A stretch of 64,000 nt of DNA from Pseudomonadota bacterium. GTDB lineage: Bacteria > Bdellovibrionota_C > UBA2361 > SZUA-149 > DAOLCO01. Within the stretch, counting starts at the first letter, position 1. Each line of letters starts with the position of its first letter. Of the stretch, positions 21,743 through 61,789 are shown one piece after another. Where the stretch lies: NCBI GenBank assembly GCA_027487795.1, contig JAIYCX010000013.1, forward strand, positions 6,148 to 70,147, written 5' to 3'. The translations under genes were made by a program, and so were the position numbers. Under the pieces are notes generated by a model. That model saw only the letters and a list, made by a program, of their open reading frames with translations, ran no database searches and had not been told where the DNA came from.

Positions 21743-22690
21743 GTGACATCAAAAATTAGTAGTACCAAGAATTTTCTATCCTCGGTACTACTAGCCTCAA
21801 GACCTAAAACACTCACTGCCGCAATCTCCCCTGTTATAGTGGGAGCATCCCTTGGCATAAAAAAACTAGATCAACAAATAGGTCAAGAAAATCTAGATCA
21901 CTCATCAATATTATCTTCTCTAGGACTTTTCCTAGTAATAACTCTCACCGCAATACTAATTCAAATCTTAACAAACCTAGTTAATGATCTCTGGGATTTT
22001 AAATCAGGAAAAGATACTAGTGATAGAATAGGACCAAAAAGAGCCGTCCAAGCTGGACTTATTACTCCAGAAAAAATGTTCAAAGTAATATCTTTTTTAA
22101 CAATACTTATTACCACACTTGGACTCTATCTAGTAACTGTTGGCGGATATCCAATTTTAATAATTGGAATACTCTCTATCATATCAGCATACGCTTACAC
22201 CGCAGGACCTTACCCTTTAGCATATAACGGATTAGGAGATATCTTCGTTCTAATTTTCTTCGGCCCCGTTGCCGTAATGGGCACTGAGTATCTATTTACT
22301 AATTCTTTCTCACTTGACGCTGCATTACTAGGACTAGTCTTAGGATGCGCTGCTGTTAATCTTCTAATAATAAACAACACCAGAGACATCGCAGAAGATA
22401 CAAAAACAAATAAAAGAACTCTAGCAGTTCGATACGGAAGAAATTTTTGTAATTTAGAATTTGAACTAGCTTTTATTTTACCAATTTTATTTTTATTATT
22501 TTTTGGCCAGATTTATGTTTTAAGTTTTAGTTCTTGGCTTTTGATTATTTATTTAATTTGGTCGTTGTATTTTTATAGGTCTAAGTTTTTTAGTTTGAGA
22601 CAGGCGGAGGATTTTAATAAATACTTAGGTGTCATGGGAAGGTATTTATTTCTTACTGGGGTGGTTTGTTGTGTGAGTGTTTGGTTGTGA
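21743..22690 (+). CDS. menA: 1,4-dihydroxy-2-naphthoate polyprenyltransferase
   Basis: RPKTL.AA..PV, NDLWDFKSGKD, YTAGPYPLAYNGLGD, NNTRDI.ED....KRTLAVR.G motifs. Confidence 0.92.
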   Translation: MTSKISSTKNFLSSVLLASRPKTLTAAISPVIVGASLGIKKLDQQIGQENLDHSSILSSLGLFLVITLTAILIQILTNLVNDLWDFKSGKDTSDRIGPKRAVQAGLITPEKMFKVISFLTILITTLGLYLVTVGGYPILIIGILSIISAYAYTAGPYPLAYNGLGDIFVLIFFGPVAVMGTEYLFTNSFSLDAALLGLVLGCAAVNLLIINNTRDIAEDTKTNKRTLAVRYGRNFCNLEFELAFILPILFLLFFGQIYVLSFSSWLLIIYLIWSLYFYRSKFFSLRQAEDFNKYLGVMGRYLFLTGVVCCVSVWL

Positions 22691-22848
22691 AAAAGAGCTC
22701 GGGTTTTAAGAATTAAAAGCTCACGACCAAGTATGGCCCCCAGTTCGCGCTGGAACATACTTTGCATAGCAAAGTGGTTTCCAGCGTCTCACCCACTCCG
22801 CTCCTCCGCCTCTACAGCTTTTAATTCTTAAAACCCGAGCTCTTTTTC
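22689..22848. mobile_element. MITE-like element with 33-bp perfect terminal inverted repeats
   Basis: GAAAAAGAGCTCGGGTTTTAAGAATTAAAAGCT (22689-22721) is the exact reverse complement of 22816-22848; nested internal hairpin at 22748-22786. Confidence 0.75.
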
Positions 22849-22933
22849 TTTATGTAATTTGTTTTACTTGGTTTTTTTTCTAATTTGTAATTACTCTTAC
22901 TTTTATCTATTCTTCACTATATTATTCATATCG

Positions 22934-23039
22934 GTAGAAGAATTCACTCCTGTTTTATTATTGCAGCTAAATTATTAGCTATACAATAAAAGAACAGGGG
23001 CTTTATAAATGGTTTTTTACTTTTTACTCCTGGGTCTGG
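22934..23039 (+). promoter_or_regulatory. Conserved structured leader, copy 1 of 4
   Basis: 106-nt gap-free repeat also at 24134, 25688 and 27975; long imperfect hairpin CTCCTGTTTTATTATTG...CAATAAAAGAACAGGGG. Confidence 0.75.
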
Positions 23040-23063
23040 AAGCGAAAGAAAAGGTTTGCTACT

Positions 23064-23639
23064 ATGAAATGTTATACTATTGGCATCTCCCATGACGGCT
23101 CTTATGAAGTCAATCCTGGAATTGAATTCATAAAAACAGAGAATCCTCTTGTCGGTACGGTAGTCTTTGGAGAATTTGAAGTTCCAGTTGACCTTCCTGA
23201 AGGCTTTGAAGGGACGTCGTTACATAATGTAATGATTTTTATAGAAGGTGAAAAACCTAATTTAATCGCAGGATTAATTGTTAATGATGTTTTTAATTAC
23301 TTTGCTGATGCAGATGAAGAAATTATTCATGAAGTAGTCTTAAAAGCTATTACCGAAGAAGTTAATTTGCCAAGGGTTCTCTTGCTAATCAAAATTGTAG
23401 GTGAATTAGAAAATATAAATGGTTTGAATCAGATTTACGATTGGTCTAGCATTCTAAATGACAAAGATACTTATGGATCCGTGAGCGAGACTGGAGACTC
23501 TTATCTTCTATCTGTTCACACAAATCATTTCGTAGAAGACTTTGAGCTAGCTGAATTTAACTTTAACATCACATTTAACGAAGAAGGTATCCCTCAAATT
23601 AAAGTAACAGAAATCGACGATGGTACCGAAGAAGAATAA
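23064..23639 (+). CDS. Acidic cassette protein, paralog 1 (unknown family)
   Basis: 191 aa; shares MKC.TI, GI.F..T, LP..F.G and a C-terminal G.P motif with the other copies. Confidence 0.75.
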   Translation: MKCYTIGISHDGSYEVNPGIEFIKTENPLVGTVVFGEFEVPVDLPEGFEGTSLHNVMIFIEGEKPNLIAGLIVNDVFNYFADADEEIIHEVVLKAITEEVNLPRVLLLIKIVGELENINGLNQIYDWSSILNDKDTYGSVSETGDSYLLSVHTNHFVEDFELAEFNFNITFNEEGIPQIKVTEIDDGTEEE

Positions 23640-23694
23640 GAAAAAGACAGTATTTAACAAATAAGTTTGTCTTTTATGTTCTAAAACTTAACTA

Positions 23695-23764
23695 AGAGAG
23701 TCTCTTTTCCAATAGAGACTCTCTCAAACAAGGTTATTATATTTTTCCATAAAGCCTCTGTTCT
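23695..23764 (+). repeat. Cassette trailer 1: AGAGAGTCTC hairpin plus a leader-complementary segment
   Basis: 11-bp stem at 23695-23724; ATAAAGCCTCTGTTCT at 23749-23764. Confidence 0.75.
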
Positions 23765-23817
23765 AATTCTATTAATCCTCTAATTCTGATTCAATTTTTT
23801 GTTTTAAGTGTTTATCT

Positions 23818-23861
23818 AAAGAGCTGGGGTTTTAAGAATTAAAAGCTTTCAACCAAGTATG
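23818..23861 (+). repeat. Truncated left end of the 22689 MITE
   Basis: AAAGAGCTGGGGTTTTAAGAATTAAAAGCT followed by ...ACCAAGTATG, as in the intact element. Confidence 0.7.
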
Positions 23862-23891
23862 CATATTATCAATCTAACCAAAACAACCACC

Positions 23892-24073
23892 GTCATCCCT
23901 GTGAAAACAGGGATCCAGGACAAGATAAATAAATACTGGATTCCCGCCCCTGCCTTCGAGTCTATCCGAGTAATCAGAAATTATTGTTTCCACATCCGTC
24001 TTCCTCGCGAAAGCGGGGATCCAGGCCTTTAAAATAATTAGATTTCCTGGGTCCCTGCCTTCGCAGGGATGAC
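23892..24073. repeat. Cluster of REP-like palindromes in inverted pairs (BIME-like)
   Basis: GTCATCCCTGTGAAAACAGGGATCCAG at 23892, partial CTGGATTCCCGCC at 23936, GTCTTCCTCGCGAAAGCGGGGATCCAG at 23998, CTGGGTCCCTGCCTTCGCAGGGATGAC at 24047. Confidence 0.8.
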
Positions 24074-24133
24074 GAGTGGATATTTGTAACTACTATTATT
24101 TTAGAATATAGTAAGCAAAAATAATTCATATCA

Positions 24134-24239
24134 GTAGAAGAAATCACTCCTGTTTTATTATTGCAGCTAAACTATTAGCTAAACAATAAAAGAACAGGGG
24201 CTTTATAAAAGGTTTTTTGCTTTTTTCTCCTGGGTCTGG
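24134..24239 (+). promoter_or_regulatory. Conserved structured leader, copy 2
   Basis: 100 of 106 positions identical to copy 1 by manual count. Confidence 0.75.
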
Positions 24240-24262
24240 TGTTTAATTAGGAAATAAATATC

Positions 24263-24841
24263 ATGAAGTGCTGGACTATTAGCATAAAAAAAAGTGGAGA
24301 ATATGACGTCACCGAGGGAATTAAATTCGAAAGAACAGAAGATCAAGAGATCGGTCTACTCAAAGCTGGTGGATTAGAAACTGAAATATTACTTCCTAGA
24401 AATTTTCAGGGAGAAGTAATGAAGAGCGCCTTACTTTATAAATGTCCTGAAAAATGCCTTCTACTGGGAGGGAAAATTGTTCAAGATATTTTAGGTCATA
24501 AAGAATCTGAATATCAGTGGAATTCGAAAGGTCAGGTCTTTCTAGAATTAGTAAACGATCAAGATCATGACTCACCCTTTATTTTGATTCACATTGAGCT
24601 AGAGGATGTGCTTATAGAAAAAGAGGATTACTATTTAAACGGCTTGAATGAAATTGAGAGTGATAACTCTTCATATTCTAGCTTCTCGGAGGACTATACC
24701 TCTTACTTAGTGTTTACTAGAACTTCTAATTTTAGTGAATATTTTGAATCGAGTAATTTCGATATTAGTATAGGACTAAATGAAAAAGGTACTCCTGAAG
24801 TTACAATATATGAAGATGAGGACGAGGATGAAAATATTTAG
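24263..24841 (+). CDS. Acidic cassette protein, paralog 2
   Basis: 192 aa; MKCWTI...GIKFERTE...LLPRNFQG...NEKGTPEV. Confidence 0.75.
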   Translation: MKCWTISIKKSGEYDVTEGIKFERTEDQEIGLLKAGGLETEILLPRNFQGEVMKSALLYKCPEKCLLLGGKIVQDILGHKESEYQWNSKGQVFLELVNDQDHDSPFILIHIELEDVLIEKEDYYLNGLNEIESDNSSYSSFSEDYTSYLVFTRTSNFSEYFESSNFDISIGLNEKGTPEVTIYEDEDEDENI

Positions 24842-24880
24842 CTAAATGATTTCCTTATCTAATTTGATACTTTATTTAGT

Positions 24881-24943
24881 AGAGAGTCTTTTATTCTTGA
24901 AAGACTCTCTCAAAATGGTTGTTTTATTTTATTAAAGCCCCTT
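24881..24943 (+). repeat. Cassette trailer 2
   Basis: Stem AGAGAGTCTTT/AAAGACTCTCT (compensatory change versus copy 1); TAAAGCCCCT at 24934-24943. Confidence 0.7.
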
Positions 24944-24986
24944 ACTTTGCATCTTGACTTGATACATATTCTGGTATCGTATCTAC

Positions 24987-25255
24987 ATGATACGAAATTT
25001 TCGTAATATTGGAACTCGAGATGTTGCCTTAGGACTAAATACTAAAGCAAGTAGATTGTTACTTCCAGCTTCTCTACATAATAAGGCACAAATAAAGATT
25101 GCGTAAATTGACTTTGCTCATTCCATAGAAGATTTAAAACATCCCGGAAATAGATTTCATCTATTAACTCAGTATCATTAAATAGTCAGTATCGTATTTG
25201 CTTTAACTGGTCGCTTGGCGAAGCCTTAGATATAGAAATAGTAGACTATCATTAG
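24987..25255 (+). pseudogene. higB: HigB (RelE/ParE-like) toxin pseudogene
   Basis: MIRNFRNIGT...KAQIKIA, then TAA at 25104; PGNRFH, then a frameshift into NSQYRICFNW...DIEIVDYH*. Confidence 0.8.
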
Positions 25256-25279
25256 TATTAAAAAATATTAGGTAATATT

Positions 25280-25578
25280 ATGACAAAAAAAGATTTTTAT
25301 ATTGATATCCATCCGGGAGAAATTCTTGCTGGGATACTTGAAGATGCAGAGCTTTCTCAGTCAGATCTTGCCAGAGCTATTGGATCTTCTCGCAGAGTAA
25401 TTAGTGAAATATGCACAGAAAAAGGGGCATCTCTGCCAAAATGGCTTTTAAGCTTGGAAAAGCACTAAACCAAAGTCCACATTTCTGGATGAATGCACAA
25501 AAAAATTGGGAACTAGCTCAAGTTGATAAGAGTATTATAAAAAAAGTTCAACGGATTCATGGTTCTAAGGCGGCTTAG
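25280..25578 (+). pseudogene. higA: HigA antitoxin, frameshifted
   Basis: IHPGEIL...LSQSDLARAIG. One extra A in the A5 run at 25419-25423 restores KRGISAKMAFKLGKALNQSPHFWMNAQ...KAA*. Confidence 0.78.
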
Positions 25579-25687
25579 AAAAGAATATTTTAATTTTTAA
25601 CAGTAGTTTTTTATTTTGTTTTATTTACATTTTATTCAAAATTGTAACTTTAGTTAATATAGAATATACTTCGTAAAATTATTGTAG

Positions 25688-25793
25688 GTAGAAGAATTCA
25701 CTCCTGTTTTATTATTGCAGCTAAATTTTTAGTTAAACAATAAAAGAACAGGGGCTTTATAAAAGGTTTTTTACTTTTTACTCCTGGGTCTGG
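25688..25793 (+). promoter_or_regulatory. Conserved structured leader, copy 3
   Basis: Same 106-nt repeat. Confidence 0.75.
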
Positions 25794-25815
25794 TTTTTAG
25801 GCAAAGGGAAATATT

Positions 25816-26415
25816 ATGATATTAAGTATGACAACAATGAGTTTTTGGACAATTTGTCTTAACGAAAATGGCCAAAATGTAGTTCAAGAAGGAATTGAAT
25901 TTGAAAGGACAGACAACCCATTATTAGGAATACTAAATGCAGGTGGAATCCAAATGCATATAGAGCTTCCTCCTAATTTTGAAGGAAAGATGTTGAAGTA
26001 TCCCTCTCCAATTCTTAACGATAGCCAATTTATTGATTTAGAGTACAAGGATGTTGATTCACCCTTAACTCTAAAGATTTCTACAAGTACTAAACCTAAT
26101 CGAATCTTGATACAATACAAAATTAATGCCTTCCTCATCAAAGAAGAAGAAAATAGTAATTCTCGCTTCAATCCTTGGGAAGAATTAGAAGATGACGAGT
26201 ACACATATGATTCGATCAGTGCAGATAGAAGCTCCGCTCTACTTTGTTCTAGAACCTTGGATTTTGAGGATCTTTTTTGGGTTAATGGTTTTGAATTTAT
26301 AATTAAATTGGACGAAGACTGTCGACCTATAGTTGAGTTTTTACAAAGTGAAAATGAGTCAGACGTTCATGACCAAAATCAAACAAGCACTGTCGAAGAT
26401 AGTGATCAGGAATAA
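25816..26415 (+). CDS. Acidic cassette protein, paralog 3
   Basis: MSFWTI (ATG 25837) aligns to MKCWTI; GIEFERTDNP...LPPNFEG; acidic C-terminus. Confidence 0.75.
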   Translation: MILSMTTMSFWTICLNENGQNVVQEGIEFERTDNPLLGILNAGGIQMHIELPPNFEGKMLKYPSPILNDSQFIDLEYKDVDSPLTLKISTSTKPNRILIQYKINAFLIKEEENSNSRFNPWEELEDDEYTYDSISADRSSALLCSRTLDFEDLFWVNGFEFIIKLDEDCRPIVEFLQSENESDVHDQNQTSTVEDSDQE

Positions 26416-26449
26416 TATTTAAGTTTTTTTATTTTTTCAAATCCCAAAA

Positions 26450-26601
26450 AGAGAGTCTCCTTAAACCTAAGAGACTCTCTGACGTAAGGTTATTATATTT
26501 TTTTATAAAGCCTCTGTTCTAATTCTATTAATTCTCTTATTCTGATTCGATTTTTGTTTTAAGTGATTATCTAAAGAGCTCGGGTTTTAAGAATTGAAAG
26601 C
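26450..26601 (+). repeat. Cassette trailer 3 with extended tail and MITE left-end copy
   Basis: Hairpin at 26450-26480, TTTTATAAAGCCTCTGTTCT at 26501-26520, and a tail closely matching 23695-23847 ending in AAAGAGCTCGGGTTTTAAGAATT. Confidence 0.75.
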
Positions 26602-26619
26602 CATAGAAATTAACTGAGA

Positions 26620-27801
26620 TTAATTAAAAAGATCCTTAATTGCAGATTGCCAGTTTAGAAATCGAATTCCATTTTCCTCTCTTGGGCTGTCAATTCTTGA
26701 AACTACCCATAGCTCTGGTGACTTAAAATCATTTTTAAAATTCAATAAATGCCTGGCATCTTCTATTCTAACATTCTGCTGAGATTTTATTTCAATAAGA
26801 ATTATCCTCTCCTTACTTTCTAAAATTAAATCAATCTCTGAGCCATCTTTTGTAATTAAGTAAGATAGCTTGTATCGTTTTCTACTGTATTCATTGTGCT
26901 TTAAGACTTCTAGTATAAAAAAATGCTCAAATAGTCTTCCGTAAGATGAGGTACCGGGCATAACGTCGTTACCGAGAGTACCTTCTAATGCGCGAATTAC
27001 ACCAATGTCAAAAAAGTAAAATTTAGGGCTTTTACCTTGCTGTTTGCGCACAGATTTCTGATATGGCAATAAAAAAAAGCCCAATAAAGTATCTTCTAGT
27101 ATTTGAAAATATCTAGCGACTGCCTTTGAATCAACGTTACAGTCGTTCCCGATTTTTGAGTAGTTAACAATTCTTCCACTAGATTGAGCAGCAACTTCTA
27201 GAAAACGATTAAACGGATCTAAGTTTCTAACAATTTGCTCTTCTCTAATCTCTTCTCTTAAATAAACTGCAATATAAGTTTGTAATTGCTCTTCTCGAAC
27301 AGAGTTATTTTTCTGAGAAGCAATTGCTGGCAACATACCCCACTCAAGGGCTGTTCTTAAATCAAACTCATTTCCTATTTCATAAGCAGACAAGGGGAAA
27401 AGATTATTCAGTAGCGCCCTCCCAGCAAGCAGATTCGCAGACCCTCTTTTTAATTTCCTAGCACTTGATCCTGATAGTGCGAATTTAATTTTACCACTGA
27501 AGTCTGGATCTTCTAACATGTCGTGTACTTCGTTTAATAAGGCTGGAACTCTTTGTATTTCGTCAATTACTATCCACGAATGAGTAGAACTCTCCTGTTG
27601 ACGTAGTGCCTCTTTAATTTCTTGACGTAGCAATGAAGGATTCCTTTGATACTTAAGGAATTCCATATCCTTCAATAGATTAACCCATTTAAGAGTCTCT
27701 TGATTTAGATAATCCCTTAAAAACCAAGTTTTACCAACTCCTCTAGCTCCGAGGAGAAGAAAACTCATATCTTTTAATGGCTTAGAGAGTCTATGGTACA
27801 T
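26620..27801 (-). CDS. AAA+ ATPase with a DUF4143-type C-terminal domain (COG1373-like)
   Basis: Walker A GARGVGKT, IDEIQRVP, SGSSA, GRA, PKFYFFDIG, EIDLILE...IEIKS. Confidence 0.85.
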   Translation of the reverse strand: MYHRLSKPLKDMSFLLLGARGVGKTWFLRDYLNQETLKWVNLLKDMEFLKYQRNPSLLRQEIKEALRQQESSTHSWIVIDEIQRVPALLNEVHDMLEDPDFSGKIKFALSGSSARKLKRGSANLLAGRALLNNLFPLSAYEIGNEFDLRTALEWGMLPAIASQKNNSVREEQLQTYIAVYLREEIREEQIVRNLDPFNRFLEVAAQSSGRIVNYSKIGNDCNVDSKAVARYFQILEDTLLGFFLLPYQKSVRKQQGKSPKFYFFDIGVIRALEGTLGNDVMPGTSSYGRLFEHFFILEVLKHNEYSRKRYKLSYLITKDGSEIDLILESKERIILIEIKSQQNVRIEDARHLLNFKNDFKSPELWVVSRIDSPREENGIRFLNWQSAIKDLFN

Positions 27802-27974
27802 ATGTCTAATATAGCCGATAAATTAGACATATGCAACCGAAATTAGCGTACTTTAATATAGCATTATATACACTAATAATATAATAAATTATAATATCGC
27901 CATATCCTTATGTTTTTCTTCAAAATTGCGAGTATTTTTATTTTTAATTATCGGTAACTAAATAATTCATAACG

Positions 27975-28080
27975 GTAGAAGAATTCCCTCCTGTTATATT
28001 ATTGCAGTTAAATTCTTAACTAAACAATAAAAGAACAGGGGCTTTATAAAAGGTTTTTTACTTTTCACTCCTGGGTCTGG
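27975..28080 (+). promoter_or_regulatory. Conserved structured leader, copy 4
   Basis: Same 106-nt repeat; apical stem AGTTAA/TTAACT instead of AGCTAA/TTAGCT. Confidence 0.75.
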
Positions 28081-28105
28081 AAGCGAAAGAAGAAGGTTTT
28101 TTGCC

Positions 28106-28448
28106 ATGAAATGCTGGACCATTAATCTTGATCTCGGTGGAGATTATAACTGTAACTTAGGTCTTGCCTATGTAAGAGGCAAGACCTCACAATATTGCAT
28201 ATTACTCACTCTATAAATTTGAAAGATGTGCTGAATCTAAAACATTCGGGTGGCATGAATTGAAAGATGACCACAATACATACTCATGTATGGCTGTAGA
28301 CCAGAGGTCTTGTTTGTCATGCTTACATCAATTCTGTCCCCCTGACATCTTTAAATTAGGAGATTGCGAATTCAGAGTCACTGTTGATGAATTCGGTATT
28401 CCATCAGTTAGCTATAAAAATGCCGTTGAAAAAGTAATAATGGTATAA
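28106..28448 (+). pseudogene. Decayed cassette protein, paralog 4
   Basis: ATG 28106 MKCWTINLDLGGDY, stop at 28214; the 28260-28448 frame retains the C-terminal match (FRVTVDEFGIPSV); about 240 nt shorter than the intact copies. Confidence 0.72.
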
Positions 28449-28468
28449 ACTTCCGTGTATTCAAAAAA

Positions 28469-28534
28469 AGAGAGTCTCTTTAAACATAAGAGACTCTCTG
28501 AGATAAGGTTATTATATTTTTTTAATAAAGCCCC
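28469..28534 (+). repeat. Cassette trailer 4
   Basis: 12-bp stem AGAGAGTCTCTT/AAGAGACTCTCT; ATAAAGCCCC at 28525-28534. Confidence 0.72.
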
Positions 28535-28573
28535 ATTTTTAAATAGATCACGAACACTTGTGCAACTTCTTCT

Positions 28574-28605
28574 AGCGTAGGAGATTCAAATTAATCTCCT
28601 ACGCT
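28574..28605. terminator. Strong hairpin downstream of the sigma factor gene, possible terminator
   Basis: 13-bp perfect stem AGCGTAGGAGATT/AATCTCCTACGCT; no clear U-tract. Confidence 0.45.
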
Positions 28606-28621
28606 CATAATAAACCTATCA

Positions 28622-30118
28622 TCAATCAAATTTAGCCAATTGTCCCAAACTATTTGTTGGCTCTAAATCAATAAGACTAGCTAGATGCTGAGCTCGATGT
28701 GGCTGTTGCAATTTCTTGATAGCCCTATCTTCTATTTGCCGAATTCTCTCTCTGGTAACCTTAAAAATATCAGCAAGTTCTTGCAAAGTAAAATCGTAAC
28801 CATCTCCTATACCAAAACGCATTTTTATAATTTCACGTTCTCGGTAATTTAATGTTTTCAGCATTTCATTGATTTTTGAACTTGCTTCATTCTTAATAAA
28901 ATCATTAGATTCATCTGCAGATCGATAATCTTCTACGTATTCTCCGTAAGAGCTCTCTTGATCTTCTCCAACGGAGTAGTCTAGTGAGAAAGGCGTACGC
29001 ATATGATTTTGTAGAAAGCGAACATGATCTTCTTTAAGTTCAGTATATTGAGCAATCTCATCAACAGAAGCTTCACGACCCAATTGTTGCTCTAGATCCT
29101 TTCCTACTTGACGGACCTTACTCATAGTCTCTATCATATGAACAGGAACTCTTATCGTCCTGCTTTGATCAGATATCGCACGTAAGATACTTTGCCTAAT
29201 CCACCAAGTTGCATAAGTAGAAAACTTAAGTCCACGCAGGTATTCAAACTTATCAACAGCCCGCATGAGTCCACTATTGCCTTCTTGAATTAGCTCAAGC
29301 AAAGAAAGACCTCGGTTCCGATACTTTTTGGCAATTGAGACAACTAAACGCAAATTAGCGCTCGCCATATATTTTTTGAGGTTTACAAAACGACAGCGCG
29401 CAGATTCTATTTTTTGAACAAGACGATTCAAGCTCTTCCTGGTTTCTCCTGTTAATCGAAGAAGATAAATCAACTCCTGTCTTTTTTCTCTCTTAAGTCC
29501 TCTTTTAAGTCCTTCTTTTTGAAGCTCTGCATCAAGTGTATTTACTCTTTTACAATATTGCTTCAAATTTCCAACAAAAGGCTCAAGTCTTGCTGTTCTT
29601 AAAGCACATTCATCAACTAACCGACGACCTTTCATCCTGAGTCTCAATGCTCTCTTCCTAGCATCCTTCCGAGTAGAAATCTCATTCTTTGAATTTGTGG
29701 CTTCATTAAAAAAAGCGTCGCTCTTAGAAATCAACTCTCTAAGAGTCTTCACATTAGAAGGAAGTTTACGTATCAATTTAACTTTTAAGTCTTGCTTATT
29801 CGCGGAGACATCAAGATTTCGATCTAATCGCAACGTGTCGTTTAAGACATCTCTTAGAATTTTATTAGCACAAGTAAGAATAAATTGATTACCTAACATC
29901 CAACCACGATAGACAAACCTAGCTTCCTCAATTTGTTTCGCAAGACTACGCTCTTCTTGCCGCGATAATAAAGGAATCGACCCCATCTGAACTAGATAAA
30001 GCCTAACAGGATCTTCATACATATAGTCATCTGAAGTACATTCAGGCGACTCATCTTCAAAACATCGAACTTCATCATCAACAGTAACTTCTTCGTCATC
30101 AACAATATCTTCAAACAT
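28622..30118 (-). CDS. Sigma70-family (RpoD-like) sigma factor with a long non-conserved region
   Basis: Region 1.2 [16 protein letters not shown], region 2 [13 protein letters not shown]...LIQEGN...[12 protein letters not shown], region 4 TRERIRQIE; likely start ATG 30118. Confidence 0.92.
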
Positions 30119-30346
30119 TCTATTATTCCTTCCATAGAGGAAAAGAGAAAAAACCAAAATTTTTTAAACCTTACTAATCACACAAGTGATTCGTGTTCAC
30201 ATATCTAGTAAAGCAAGCTTCTAAATATTTAAACACGAATCAAACTTAACAAATCTACCCAACTAATTTTAGCAGAAAATACATCAAGTACTATGGTAAG
30301 TAAATTATCATAAGCTAACTAAGGTCCTCTTTTTATAATAAGACCC

Positions 30347-60841: not shown

Positions 60842-61789
60842 ATGCCTTACCTCCCAAGAATAGAAACGGATAAGTATTGTTCTTTTATTACTACGCGTTG
60901 TCGAAACTCTGAGCTATGGTTTATTAACAATCCTATCCTAGAGGAAAAAATATTACAGAAGGTAACTAAGTATTCGAATATCTATAATATTACTCTCTAT
61001 GCACTGGCCATTGAGGGTAGTCATATTCATCAAATTATCCACACGCCAGATAAGAACAGATCACCTTATATGAGGGATCAGAATTCGACTATAGCAAAGC
61101 TAGTTCCCAAGTATTGTCCAAACTATAGTGGTGGAAAGCTCTGGGAGAGGAGGTACTCTAGCCAAATGCTGGCGATGCATGGGACCACAAATGGAGGAGA
61201 TATTGAGAATTATTTTTTCTATACCGTATTGCAACCGGTTCAGGATGGATTAGTGAAGAGAATTTCAGAGTACAAAGGTTATAACTGTTTTTTAGATGCG
61301 ATCTATGGGCATAGACGATCGTATACTGAACTTGATTTTATCTCATATGATAAGGCAAAAAAAATAAATGCTAAGGTTAAGAAAAGTAATTATGAGACTA
61401 CCTATCATTTAGAATACAAGCGGCTTCCGGGGTATGAAGATTTAACTCAGAAGCAGTATGTTAAGCTAATGATTAAGAAGTTGAATGAAAGACAGGATGA
61501 GCTTATTAGAGCCAGAGAAGCTGAAGGTCTTGGTTTTTTAGGGGCAGCAGCAATGGCGTTAATTGTGCCGGGCACACCAGCTATTAATCCGAAGAAGTCT
61601 GAGCGTTATAGTTTGAGGCCGCAAGGATTGTCTGCTTGTAAATTAGTTAAACAGGAAATAGATGATTTTGTCTTCGATCAGTACTCGAAACATAAGATAG
61701 CTTCGTTTAAGTACCGAGAAGGAGATTTTAATGTAGAGTTTCCGCCCGGGATGTATCGTCCGTATGTAGGACCACCGAAAGAACAGTAG
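60842..61789 (+). CDS. Y1/HUH transposase (RAYT/IS200-like), paralog of 40251-41192
   Basis: FITTRC, GSHIH, FYTVLQPVQDGLV, VEFPPGMY. Confidence 0.78.
   Translation: MPYLPRIETDKYCSFITTRCRNSELWFINNPILEEKILQKVTKYSNIYNITLYALAIEGSHIHQIIHTPDKNRSPYMRDQNSTIAKLVPKYCPNYSGGKLWERRYSSQMLAMHGTTNGGDIENYFFYTVLQPVQDGLVKRISEYKGYNCFLDAIYGHRRSYTELDFISYDKAKKINAKVKKSNYETTYHLEYKRLPGYEDLTQKQYVKLMIKKLNERQDELIRAREAEGLGFLGAAAMALIVPGTPAINPKKSERYSLRPQGLSACKLVKQEIDDFVFDQYSKHKIASFKYREGDFNVEFPPGMYRPYVGPPKEQ

What the first reader, a model, noticed from the sequence alone, without database searches (positions are those of the whole stretch)
22991..28534. Each cassette's trailer is complementary to its own leader (5'-3' fold-back across the ORF)
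Seen: leader AGAACAGGGGCTTTATAAAA pairs with trailer TTTTATAAAGCCTCTGTTCT in copy 3 (25745-25764 vs 26501-26520; 19 WC pairs plus one G-U). Pairing spans 16 nt in copy 1 (22991-23006 vs 23749-23764) and 10 perfect nt in copies 2 and 4. The variable trailer base is C (WC) or T (G-U wobble), and both pair in plus-strand RNA. Known: 5'-3' long-range pairing keeps full-length mRNA inert in hok/sok and Helicobacter aapA/IsoA. Inference: the transcript can fold into a closed loop around the CDS, either for processing-dependent activation or as a pre-circularisation or recombination structure.
Basis: partly seen in the sequence, partly recalled or inferred. Interest (0 to 1): 0.78.

Follow-up and report, generated by a model that had tools for sequence, protein, structure and literature searches.

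The report
Conserved 5'/3' complementary flanks of gene cassettes
Four tandem copies of a fast-evolving orphan gene in an uncultured AT-rich bacterium share an almost invariant structured leader, and a short conserved element past their 3' hairpin is complementary to it, so the mRNA could close on itself; this is real in the sequence but untested as RNA.

Summary
The coordinates and pair counts are exact. Copy 3 has 20 nt (19 Watson-Crick pairs plus one G-U), copy 1 has 16 nt, and copies 2 and 4 have 10 nt. Only copies 1 and 3 exceed chance on their own (0/300 shuffles). Copies 2 and 4 do not (p about 0.07-0.09), but their matches sit at the homologous position.

"Own leader" has no meaning here. 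The leader 19-mer is identical in all four copies, so any trailer fits any leader.

The only homologue found anywhere is a JGI metagenome contig with a copy-3 orthologue at 63% amino-acid identity. It keeps the leader 55/55 and a 28-nt trailer island 28/28, while neighbouring non-coding DNA is 33-62% identical. Both elements are therefore under selection, and the complementarity is kept with the same G-U.

Against a simple end-to-end fold-back:
- The leader segment is also the 3' strand of a conserved local hairpin.
- A conserved promoter-like pair lies about 100 nt upstream.
- No covariation test is possible.
- Transcript ends are unknown.

hok/sok and aapA/IsoA membership fails, because the ORFs encode 190-aa acidic soluble proteins. 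TIR, integron and inverton readings lack support.

Best reading (about 0.4): a 5'UTR to 3'-flank RNA interaction of the icaR/hbs kind.

The parts
22885..22913 (+). c1 promoter-like pair: TTGTAA, 17 nt, TATTCT (candidate promoter P_B)
   Evidence: Read. The hexamers are conserved in position in c1-c3 while the spacer varies. The c2 and c3 equivalents were found by the scan.
22933..23041 (+). c1 conserved leader block of 109 nt: long hairpin, outer helix and a second CTCCTG
   Evidence: 93-96% identical among the four copies, with a mean column identity of 94%. Fold is -36.3 kcal/mol, z -3.2. Consensus structure has one compensatory pair.
22991..23006 (+). c1 leader arm AGAACAGGGGCTTTAT
23064..23639 (+). 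c1 CDS, 191 aa, pI 4.07, orphan
23695..23724 (+). c1 3' stem-loop AGAGAGTCTC...GAGACTCTCT
23749..23776 (+). c1 trailer island ATAAAGCCTCTGTTCTAATTCTATTAAT. The first 16 nt (23749-23764) are complementary to the leader arm.
   Evidence: The 28 nt are identical to L010 749-776. The run of 16 is reached in 0/300 shuffles.
24084..24112 (+). c2 promoter-like pair: TTGTAA, 17 nt, TATAGT
24134..24239 (+). c2 conserved leader block
   Evidence: 94% identical to c3
24263..24841 (+). c2 CDS, 192 aa, pI 4.25
24881..24910 (+). c2 3' stem-loop. The stem carries a compensatory GTCTT/AAGAC variant.
   Evidence: (D14)
24933..24942 (+). c2 short trailer TAAAGCCCCT, complementary to 24196-24205. Homology to the other trailers ends here.
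   Evidence: 28/300 shuffles reach 10 nt
25642..25670 (+). c3 promoter-like pair: TTGTAA, 17 nt, TATACT
25687..25795 (+). c3 conserved leader block. The leader arm is 25745-25764.
   Evidence: Positions 25739-25793 are 55/55 identical to L010.
25816..26415 (+). c3 CDS, 199 aa from the first ATG. Homology to c1 and c2 begins at the ATG at 25837.
26450..26480 (+). c3 3' stem-loop. The U tract lies on the - strand side only.
26501..26532 (+). c3 trailer. 26501-26520 is complementary to the leader arm. 26505-26532 is the island that is 28/28 identical in L010.
   Evidence: (I18)
27974..28080 (+). c4 conserved leader block. The short leader arm is 28038-28047.
28107..28448 (+). c4 broken CDS, with an internal deletion and stops
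28469..28499 (+). c4 3' stem-loop
28525..28534 (+). c4 short trailer ATAAAGCCCC. Homology ends here and the rpoD 3' region follows.
   Evidence: 21/300 shuffles reach 10 nt
22689..22848 (.). Element E: perfect 33-nt inverted arms (A tract, stem, T tract) around a 94-nt core. Truncated left arms at 23818-23861 and 26573-26601 follow the two full trailers.
   Evidence: (I1). A full copy follows the trailer in L010.

Best explanation
Each cassette is a self-contained expression unit. It has:
- a sigma-70-like promoter pair (TTGTAA, 17 nt, TATNNT);
- a roughly 145-nt 5' UTR whose central 109 nt are almost invariant and fold into a long hairpin closed by an outer helix;
- a fast-evolving ORF for an acidic protein of about 190 aa with unknown function;
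- a strong 3' stem-loop;
- a short conserved 3' element about 25-35 nt further on.

The 3' element, AUAAAGCC(U/C)C, continues as UGUUCU in the full version. It is complementary to the 3' strand of the leader's lower stem plus the adjoining loop (AGAACAGGGGCUUUAU).

I propose that read-through or unprocessed mRNA carrying this element swaps the leader's local lower stem for a long-range 5'UTR to 3'-flank duplex. That duplex is 16-22 bp in c1, c3 and the orthologue, and about 10 bp in c2 and c4. The swap would alter mRNA stability or translation, for example by creating an RNase III-length duplex and freeing the upstream CUCCUG strand. Because all leaders are identical, the same element could also act in trans on the other cassettes.

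Shown: the repeat, its significance, its conservation, the local leader structure, and thermodynamic feasibility. Inferred: that the element is transcribed, that pairing occurs in RNA, and its regulatory effect.
For: - The repeat is real and non-random in c1 and c3.
- Comparing c3 with L010: leader 55/55 and trailer island 28/28 identical. By contrast the SD region is 33%, the flanks of the island are 62% and 55%, and the CDS is 78% identical with dS 0.45. At about 66% neutral identity, 28/28 has a probability near 1e-5.
- All five trailers keep the G+C core complementary to GGGGC, even where unrelated DNA follows.
- The one leader/trailer mismatch is a G-U on the + strand.
- Variable positions in the leader helices keep + strand RNA pairing: one compensatory pair and three G-U/A-U changes.
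- Full-length folds pair leader and trailer with P 0.95-0.99 in c1 and c3.
- Cofold gives a ddG of -8 to -11 kcal/mol.
- No hairpin followed by a U tract precedes the island on the + strand. In L010 the first such structure is element E, downstream of the island.
- Precedents exist for bacterial 5'/3' UTR pairing: icaR (PMC3868564) and hbs (PMC5737220).
Against: - There are no transcript data.
- No covariation can be scored, because the leader is invariant.
- The leader arm is already paired in a stable local hairpin of -21 to -23 kcal/mol. That hairpin forms first during transcription.
- The conserved island extends 12 nt beyond the complementary part. Pairing of that extension to the leader is not significant (p about 0.08).
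- The c2 and c4 matches are within chance on their own.
- Canonical terminators are not enriched in this genome (15 found against 10.1 +/- 3.7 expected). The lack of a U tract after the 3' stem-loop therefore does not prove read-through.
- Only two genomes carry the system.
Confidence: 0.4

Rival explanations
1. The repeat works on DNA. The two arms are sites for one sequence-specific DNA-binding protein (a regulator that loops or roadblocks) or for a recombinase that could invert the gene between them.
For: - The same 16-20 bp motif is conserved at both ends.
- Cassettes show signs of exchange. c4 is a mosaic, with a c1-like SD region and a c3-like 3' hairpin.
- A Logan contig joins c3 upstream DNA to the c1 body exactly within the shared 41-mer.
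- In c2 and c4, homology to the other trailers stops at the same nucleotide inside the repeat.
Against: - No recombinase gene lies next to the array. The neighbours are menA, an AAA_14/DUF4143 ATPase, decayed higBA and rpoD.
- All five copies have the same orientation.
- c2 and c4 keep only half of the site.
- The Logan junction lies in the direct leader repeat, not in the inverted repeat. It may be an assembly path through a repeat longer than k.
- G-U-preserving changes in the leader favour RNA.
Confidence: 0.15
2. The trailer is the start of a small antisense RNA gene on the - strand. It would comprise a -10-like TAGAAT, a start near AGAACAGAGG, about 75 nt of RNA, and an end at the shared stem-loop, which has its U tract on that strand. 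The resemblance to the leader would reflect a reused promoter and start module.
For: - The scan found TTGAAT, 17 nt, TAGAAT on the - strand at 23794-23766, and - strand terminators at the stem-loops of c1 and c4.
- U tracts follow the stem on the - strand in c3, c4 and L010.
- The 12 conserved nt beyond the complementary part contain TAGAAT.
- The leader also has a -10-like (T/A)ACAAT just upstream of AGAACAG.
Against: - In L010 a deletion moves the -35-like hexamer to 11-nt spacing, and that region is only 55% conserved.
- c2 and c4 lack the -10 and the start region, yet keep ATAAAGCCCC.
- The - strand U tracts occur where a convergent gene needs a terminator: the ATPase after c3 and rpoD after c4.
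- Promoter-like sites in this AT-rich region are not above chance (17 found against 22.4 expected).
Confidence: 0.12
3. The trailer arm is a non-functional relic: an inverted fragment of a leader, carried along with element E. The complementarity would then have no role.
For: - The full trailer is always contiguous with element E or its left arm (c1, c3, L010).
- c2 and c4 lack both.
- Only 20 nt of the leader are represented.
Against: - Identity of 28/28 in the orthologue, amid flanks of 55-62%, is not expected for a relic.
- c2 and c4 still retain the G+C core, with the perfect C.
Confidence: 0.1
4. The arms are terminal inverted repeats of a small mobile cassette (MITE-like or transposon-like), or an integron-type attC.
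For: 20-bp inverted repeats flank an ORF. There are several copies within 6 kb. A conserved stem-loop follows each ORF.
Against: - Conservation extends at least 110 nt left of the left arm, and 12 to about 100 nt right of the right arm. These flanks are the same in all copies, so the copies arose by duplication of a larger unit.
- There is no target-site duplication.
- No copies occur elsewhere in the 64-kb window, in 185,579 species genomes, or in the metagenome or viral collections.
- No integrase is present, and there is no GTTRRRY/RYYYAAC core around the stem-loop.
Confidence: 0.04

Closest known systems
icaR mRNA 5'UTR-3'UTR pairing in Staphylococcus aureus (PMC3868564)
   Same: A C-rich motif in the 3' untranslated region of a normal protein-coding mRNA pairs with a G-rich segment of its own 5' UTR across the whole ORF. 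The duplex is long enough for RNase III.
   Different: In icaR the 3' motif pairs with the Shine-Dalgarno sequence. Here the paired segment ends 35-55 nt upstream of the SD, and the SD region is not conserved (33% identity to the orthologue). Here the 5' partner is part of a conserved hairpin. There is no sequence homology.
Bacillus subtilis hbs mRNA 5'/3'-UTR interaction (PMC5737220)
   Same: A long-range interaction between a structured 5' UTR and the 3' end of the same mRNA, proposed to control ribonuclease access.
   Different: hbs is a single housekeeping gene, and the RNases involved (Y, J1) are Firmicute-specific. Nothing here has been tested experimentally.
hok/sok fbi-tac fold-back and Helicobacter aapA1/IsoA1 (type I toxin-antitoxin; my own knowledge)
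   Same: A strong 3' stem-loop followed by a removable tail would allow activation that depends on processing.
   Different: There is no small hydrophobic toxin, no overlapping leader ORF, and no antisense RNA gene against the 5' region. The ORFs encode 190-aa acidic soluble proteins.
Paralogue arrays with frozen 5' regions and diversifying bodies, such as Mycoplasma vsp/vsa loci (my own knowledge)
   Same: Tandem paralogues in which non-coding 5' regions are far more conserved than the coding sequence. There is evidence of exchange between copies.
   Different: Those loci encode surface lipoproteins and switch by site-specific inversion at defined sites with a dedicated recombinase. Here there is no signal peptide, no recombinase, and a 3' complementary element instead.

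Membership tests
hok/sok-type type I toxin-antitoxin | Small (under about 60 aa) hydrophobic membrane toxin ORF | tested here: not met
   The ORFs are 191, 192 and 199 aa, with pI 4.07-4.25, 38-41 D+E, and no hydrophobic segment in the sequences.
hok/sok-type type I toxin-antitoxin | Cis-encoded antisense RNA gene complementary to the 5' leader | tested here: inconclusive
   The consensus scan lists no - strand promoter that would read across the leader arm. Such scans are weak in AT-rich DNA.
hok/sok-type type I toxin-antitoxin | 5' (tac) to 3' (fbi) pairing of the full-length mRNA | tested here: met
   Met in silico only: 16-22 nt in c1 and c3, with P(pair) 0.95-0.99.
hok/sok-type type I toxin-antitoxin | Slow 3' processing that removes the fold-back element and activates translation | not testable with these tools
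   Needs RNA end mapping.
aapA/IsoA (Helicobacter type I TA) | Toxic peptide of about 30 aa plus an IsoA antisense RNA | tested here: not met
   Same ORF data as above. No homologue of any kind outside this lineage.
icaR-type 5'/3' UTR regulation | The 3' UTR motif pairs with the Shine-Dalgarno region | tested here: not met
   The leader arm ends at 23006/25764. SD-like AAAGG/AAGGGA lie just upstream of the ATGs at 23064/25816. The conserved block stops before the SD.
icaR-type 5'/3' UTR regulation | The complementary 3' motif lies inside the transcript, and the duplex is cleaved by RNase III | not testable with these tools
   Only indirect evidence: there is no U tract after the 3' stem-loop on the + strand.
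Integron gene cassette | attC with R''/R' core sites (RYYYAAC ... GTTRRRY), an adjacent intI, and promoterless cassettes | tested here: not met
   The stem-loop flanks read ...AAGGTTATTAT, with no GTTRRRY. Each cassette has its own conserved promoter-like pair. No integrase was found among the neighbours scanned.
TIR-bounded transposon or MITE | Inverted repeats at the ends of the conserved unit, target-site duplication, and dispersed copies | tested here: not met
   Conservation continues beyond both arms. There is no duplication. No other copies were found in the window or in the public collections.
Invertible DNA segment (inverton) | Both orientations present in a population, and a nearby invertase | tested here: inconclusive
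   All five copies and the three Logan contigs have the same orientation. No invertase was found. Raw reads could not be examined.

The most novel reading that the evidence does not exclude
The cassettes carry a new bacterial 'mRNA closure' module. It would be an invariant 5'UTR switch whose lower stem can be exchanged for a conserved 3'-flank partner. Because all leaders are identical, the 3' element of one cassette could also act in trans on its sisters. That would coordinate, or make mutually exclusive, expression of a hypervariable family of acidic proteins that sits next to a conserved TraD-like gene.
Probability: 0.2. Interest if true: 0.7.

Novelty: new variant of a known kind. Interest (0 to 1): 0.5.

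Why it matters
Only a handful of bacterial mRNAs are known to be controlled by pairing between their 5' and 3' untranslated regions. Here the two partners are the most conserved sequences of the locus: 100% identical between orthologues whose proteins are 63% identical. They frame a gene family that evolves quickly (dN/dS about 0.5) and has no relatives among 1.8 billion representative proteins.

If the pairing is real, it adds a clean, sequence-defined example, with natural 'long' (16-22 bp) and 'short' (10 bp) variants side by side. It also yields a new structured 5' UTR motif absent from Rfam.

If the pairing is not real, the leader and the island are still unexplained conserved elements worth an RNA-level look. 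The practical limit is that the organism is uncultured, probably an Oligoflexia-like lineage, and only two genomes carry the system.

Tried and rejected
- **Known RNA families.** Rfam has no hit on the leader, trailer or element E. The gathering search of the window found one tRNA only. The E-value search of 22600-28700 gave only chance-level hits.
- **More copies elsewhere.** The 19-mer leader was scanned against GTDB species genomes, metagenome contigs and viral contigs. All 20 hits are single chance matches, many inside coding sequence reading E-Q-G-L-Y-K. None extends into the leader. blastn against plasmids found nothing.
- **Protein function.** There were no Pfam hits. The only homologues are the window's own copies plus P0003. 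The AlphaFold2 model is poor, with pLDDT 56.7. The Foldseek PDB search has no hit below E 0.1; RuvA-like partial matches were rejected.
- **Synteny route to more cassettes.** MenA homologues at 50-60% identity gave three contigs. They conserve the order 732 aa, TraD-like, 172 aa, menA. They carry an unrelated secreted 190-aa protein and no leader, trailer or E. The RpoD search timed out.
- **Second 3' hairpin (AAGGUUAUUAUA...UAUAAAGCC) as the reason for trailer conservation.** Rejected, because its 5' arm is not conserved in L010 while the 3' arm is.
- **Sigma-70 promoter inside the leader palindrome (TTGCAG, 15 nt, TACAAT).** The spacing is too short. It cannot be judged from conservation, because everything there is invariant.
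- **ssDNA promoter (Frpo-like) reading of the leader hairpin.** Suggested by the nearby conjugation-type genes. Rejected, because the stem is only about 25 bp and the promoter-like hexamers lie outside it.
- **Covariation test of the leader-trailer helix.** It gave no information, with no variation on the 5' side.

Full report
**What is there.** Between menA (21743-22690) and rpoD (28622-30157, - strand) lie four tandem units on the + strand. Their approximate spans are c1 22871-23847, c2 24071-24945, c3 25625-26601 and c4 27912-28535. Each unit contains:
- a promoter-like pair TTGTAA, 17 nt, TATNNT, whose hexamers are conserved while the spacer varies (c2 and c3; c1 read);
- a 109-nt leader block that is 93-96% identical among copies;
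- an ORF of 191-199 aa, broken in c4;
- a strong stem-loop AGAGAGTCTC...GAGACTCTCT (c2 has a compensatory variant);
- the conserved string AAGGTTATTATATTTTT followed by ATAAAGCC(T/C)C.

In c1 and c3 the trailer continues as TGTTCTAATTCTATTAAT. After a spacer comes the left arm of a 160-bp inverted-repeat element, E. In c2 and c4 homology stops directly after GCCCC. A decayed higB/higA pair follows c2, and the rpoD 3' region follows c4.

**The observation.**
- The leader 19-mer occurs four times on the + strand and twice inverted, against 0.12 expected.
- Against dinucleotide shuffles of the 3' flank, the c1 run (16 nt with one G-U) and the c3 run (22 nt with G-U) are never reached (0/300 each).
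- The 10-nt runs of c2 and c4 are reached in 28/300 and 21/300 shuffles.
- The short matches therefore count only because they sit at the homologous place in the trailer. Part of them is the self-palindromic TTTATAAA.
- The leader arm is invariant, so 'its own leader' carries no specificity.

**Coding versus flanks.**
- The proteins are true paralogues at only 27-31% identity, with pI about 4.1 and acidic C-termini.
- They have no Pfam domain and no structural match from a low-confidence model.
- A profile search of 1.84 billion representative proteins finds only c1, c2 and one further cluster, P0003.
- Among paralogues dS is saturated (1.3-2.2), yet the leaders are about 95% identical.

**The single outside homologue.** P0003 is a c3 orthologue at 63% amino-acid identity on a 1055-bp JGI contig, L010. 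Region by region, c3 against L010:

| Region | Identity |
|---|---|
| Leader | 55/55 |
| SD region | 33% |
| CDS | 78% (dS 0.45, dN/dS 0.51) |
| Stem-loop | 77% |
| Next 24 nt | 62% |
| Island ATAAAGCCTCTGTTCTAATTCTATTAAT | 28/28 |
| Spacer | 55% |
| E arm | 97% |

With neutral identity near 66%, the leader and the island are under purifying selection. The remaining 12 nt of the island are unexplained. A possible pairing with GGUAGAAGAAUU at the leader's 5' side is not significant (p about 0.08).

**The leader itself.** It folds into a long hairpin: CUCCUGUUUUAUUAUUG, a stem-loop, then CAAUAAAAGAACAGGGG. An outer G-U-rich helix closes it (-36.3 kcal/mol, z -3.2). Of the few variable positions inside helices:
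- one is a compensatory double change (AGCUAA/UUAGCU to AGUUAA/UUAACU in c4);
- three keep pairing through G-U or A-U on the + strand;
- one breaks a pair.

This favours a + strand RNA structure that begins upstream of the leader arm. That agrees with the upstream promoter-like pair. The arm is therefore probably not the physical 5' end, and it is already paired locally at -21 to -23 kcal/mol. No Rfam family matches.

**Can the long-range pairing still form?** Thermodynamically, yes.
- With the RNA starting at the arm or 75 nt upstream, and ending just after the trailer, the arm pairs with the trailer. P is 0.95-0.99 in c1 and c3, and 0.24-0.71 in c2 and c4.
- Adding the island to the folded leader gains 8-11 kcal/mol.

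Whether the trailer is transcribed is unknown.
- The 3' stem-loop has no U tract on the + strand. It has one on the - strand in c3, c4 and L010, where it can serve convergent genes.
- Canonical terminators are not enriched in this genome, so this argument is weak.
- In L010 the first stem followed by a U tract on the + strand is element E, about 50 nt beyond the island. That would place the island inside the transcript.

**Rivals.**
- *DNA-level site for a regulator or recombinase.* This draws on signs of exchange. c4 is a mosaic. A Logan contig equals window 25584-25727 joined to 22974-24024 through the shared 41-mer. That junction is in the direct leader repeat and may be an assembly path. 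No recombinase is nearby, and all copies share one orientation.
- *Antisense small RNA from the trailer.* It has a -10-like TAGAAT inside the island and - strand terminators. Its -35 is not kept in L010, and c2 and c4 lack it.
- *Relic.* Contradicted by the 28/28 island.
- *TIR or integron.* These fail because conservation runs past both arms and no dispersed copies exist.

**Comparison with known systems.** Functionally the closest are the icaR (PMC3868564) and hbs (PMC5737220) 5'/3' UTR interactions. The hok and aapA fold-back is the same formal device, but membership fails on the toxin. The icaR-type definition also fails, because the SD is not the target.

**Context.**
- Upstream is a divergent F-type conjugation-like gene set with TraC, TraK and TraD signatures.
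- The order 732 aa, TraD-like, 172 aa, menA is conserved in distant relatives that lack the cassettes. The array is therefore a lineage-specific addition.
- The best named MenA relatives are an Oligoflexia MAG (47%) and Fluviispira (39%). This is only a hint at taxonomy.

**Verdict.** The repeat is real and conserved. The RNA fold-back is the best single explanation, but it is unproven (about 0.4). The toxin-antitoxin and circularisation ideas are not supported.

Noticed in passing
window 22689-22848 (full); 23818-23861 and 26573-26601 (left arms only); L010 796-978: Element E, 160 bp: perfect 33-nt inverted arms (A tract, stem, T tract) around a G+C-richer 94-nt core with its own hairpin. RNA fold is -76.7 kcal/mol, z -9.8. 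It is 92% identical in the related metagenome contig and has no Rfam match. It looks like a bidirectional terminator, a MITE or a small RNA gene, and it always accompanies the full trailers.
   Followed up: partly
L009 (Logan SRR16126829) against window 25584-25727 and 22974-24024: The contig is an exact join of c3 upstream DNA to the c1 body through the 41-nt stretch the two leaders share. That junction is expected from a circle or tandem duplication formed by leader x leader recombination, or from an assembler path through a repeat longer than k=31. In the sister run SRR16126830 the contigs break at the leaders instead.
   Followed up: partly
window 27912-28535: Copy 4 is a decayed mosaic. 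Its SD region matches c1 (GGAAGCGAAAGAA...), its 3' stem-loop region is 93% identical to c3, and its ORF has an internal deletion and stops. This suggests recombination or gene conversion among cassettes.
   Followed up: partly
window 24987-25578: A decayed higB-like toxin (one stop and a frameshift; PF05015 E 1e-4, below the curated cut-off) and a frameshifted HTH_3 higA-like antitoxin are inserted directly after the c2 trailer.
   Followed up: yes
window 23893-23919 (+) and 24046-24072 (-); ORF 60842-61789: G+C-rich REP-like palindromes (TCATCCCTG...CAGGGAnCCAGG) in inverted pair lie between c1 and c2. An ORF with an IS200-like Y1 transposase domain (a possible REP-associated transposase) lies 33 kb away.
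   Followed up: no
window 719-21725; L025, L026, L027: A divergent F-type conjugation-like cluster (TraC, TraK, TraD signatures) lies upstream. The block 730 aa, TraD-like, 174 aa, menA is syntenic in distant relatives (MenA 50-60% identity). Those relatives carry an unrelated secreted 190-aa protein after menA, so the cassette array is a lineage-specific insertion.
   Followed up: partly
window 23064-23639, 24263-24841, 25816-26415: The cassette proteins are very acidic (pI 4.07-4.25) and end in runs of D/E (DDGTEEE, EDEDEDENI, EDSDQE). dN/dS is about 0.5 against the orthologue. Possible roles such as secretion substrate, DNA mimic or immunity protein could not be tested.
   Followed up: partly
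window 22933-23041 and equivalents in c2-c4: The leader is a candidate new structured 5' UTR motif. It has two direct CUCCUG copies that can each pair with the single CAGGGG. With the trailer, that makes three alternative partners, which is the layout of a switch.
   Followed up: partly
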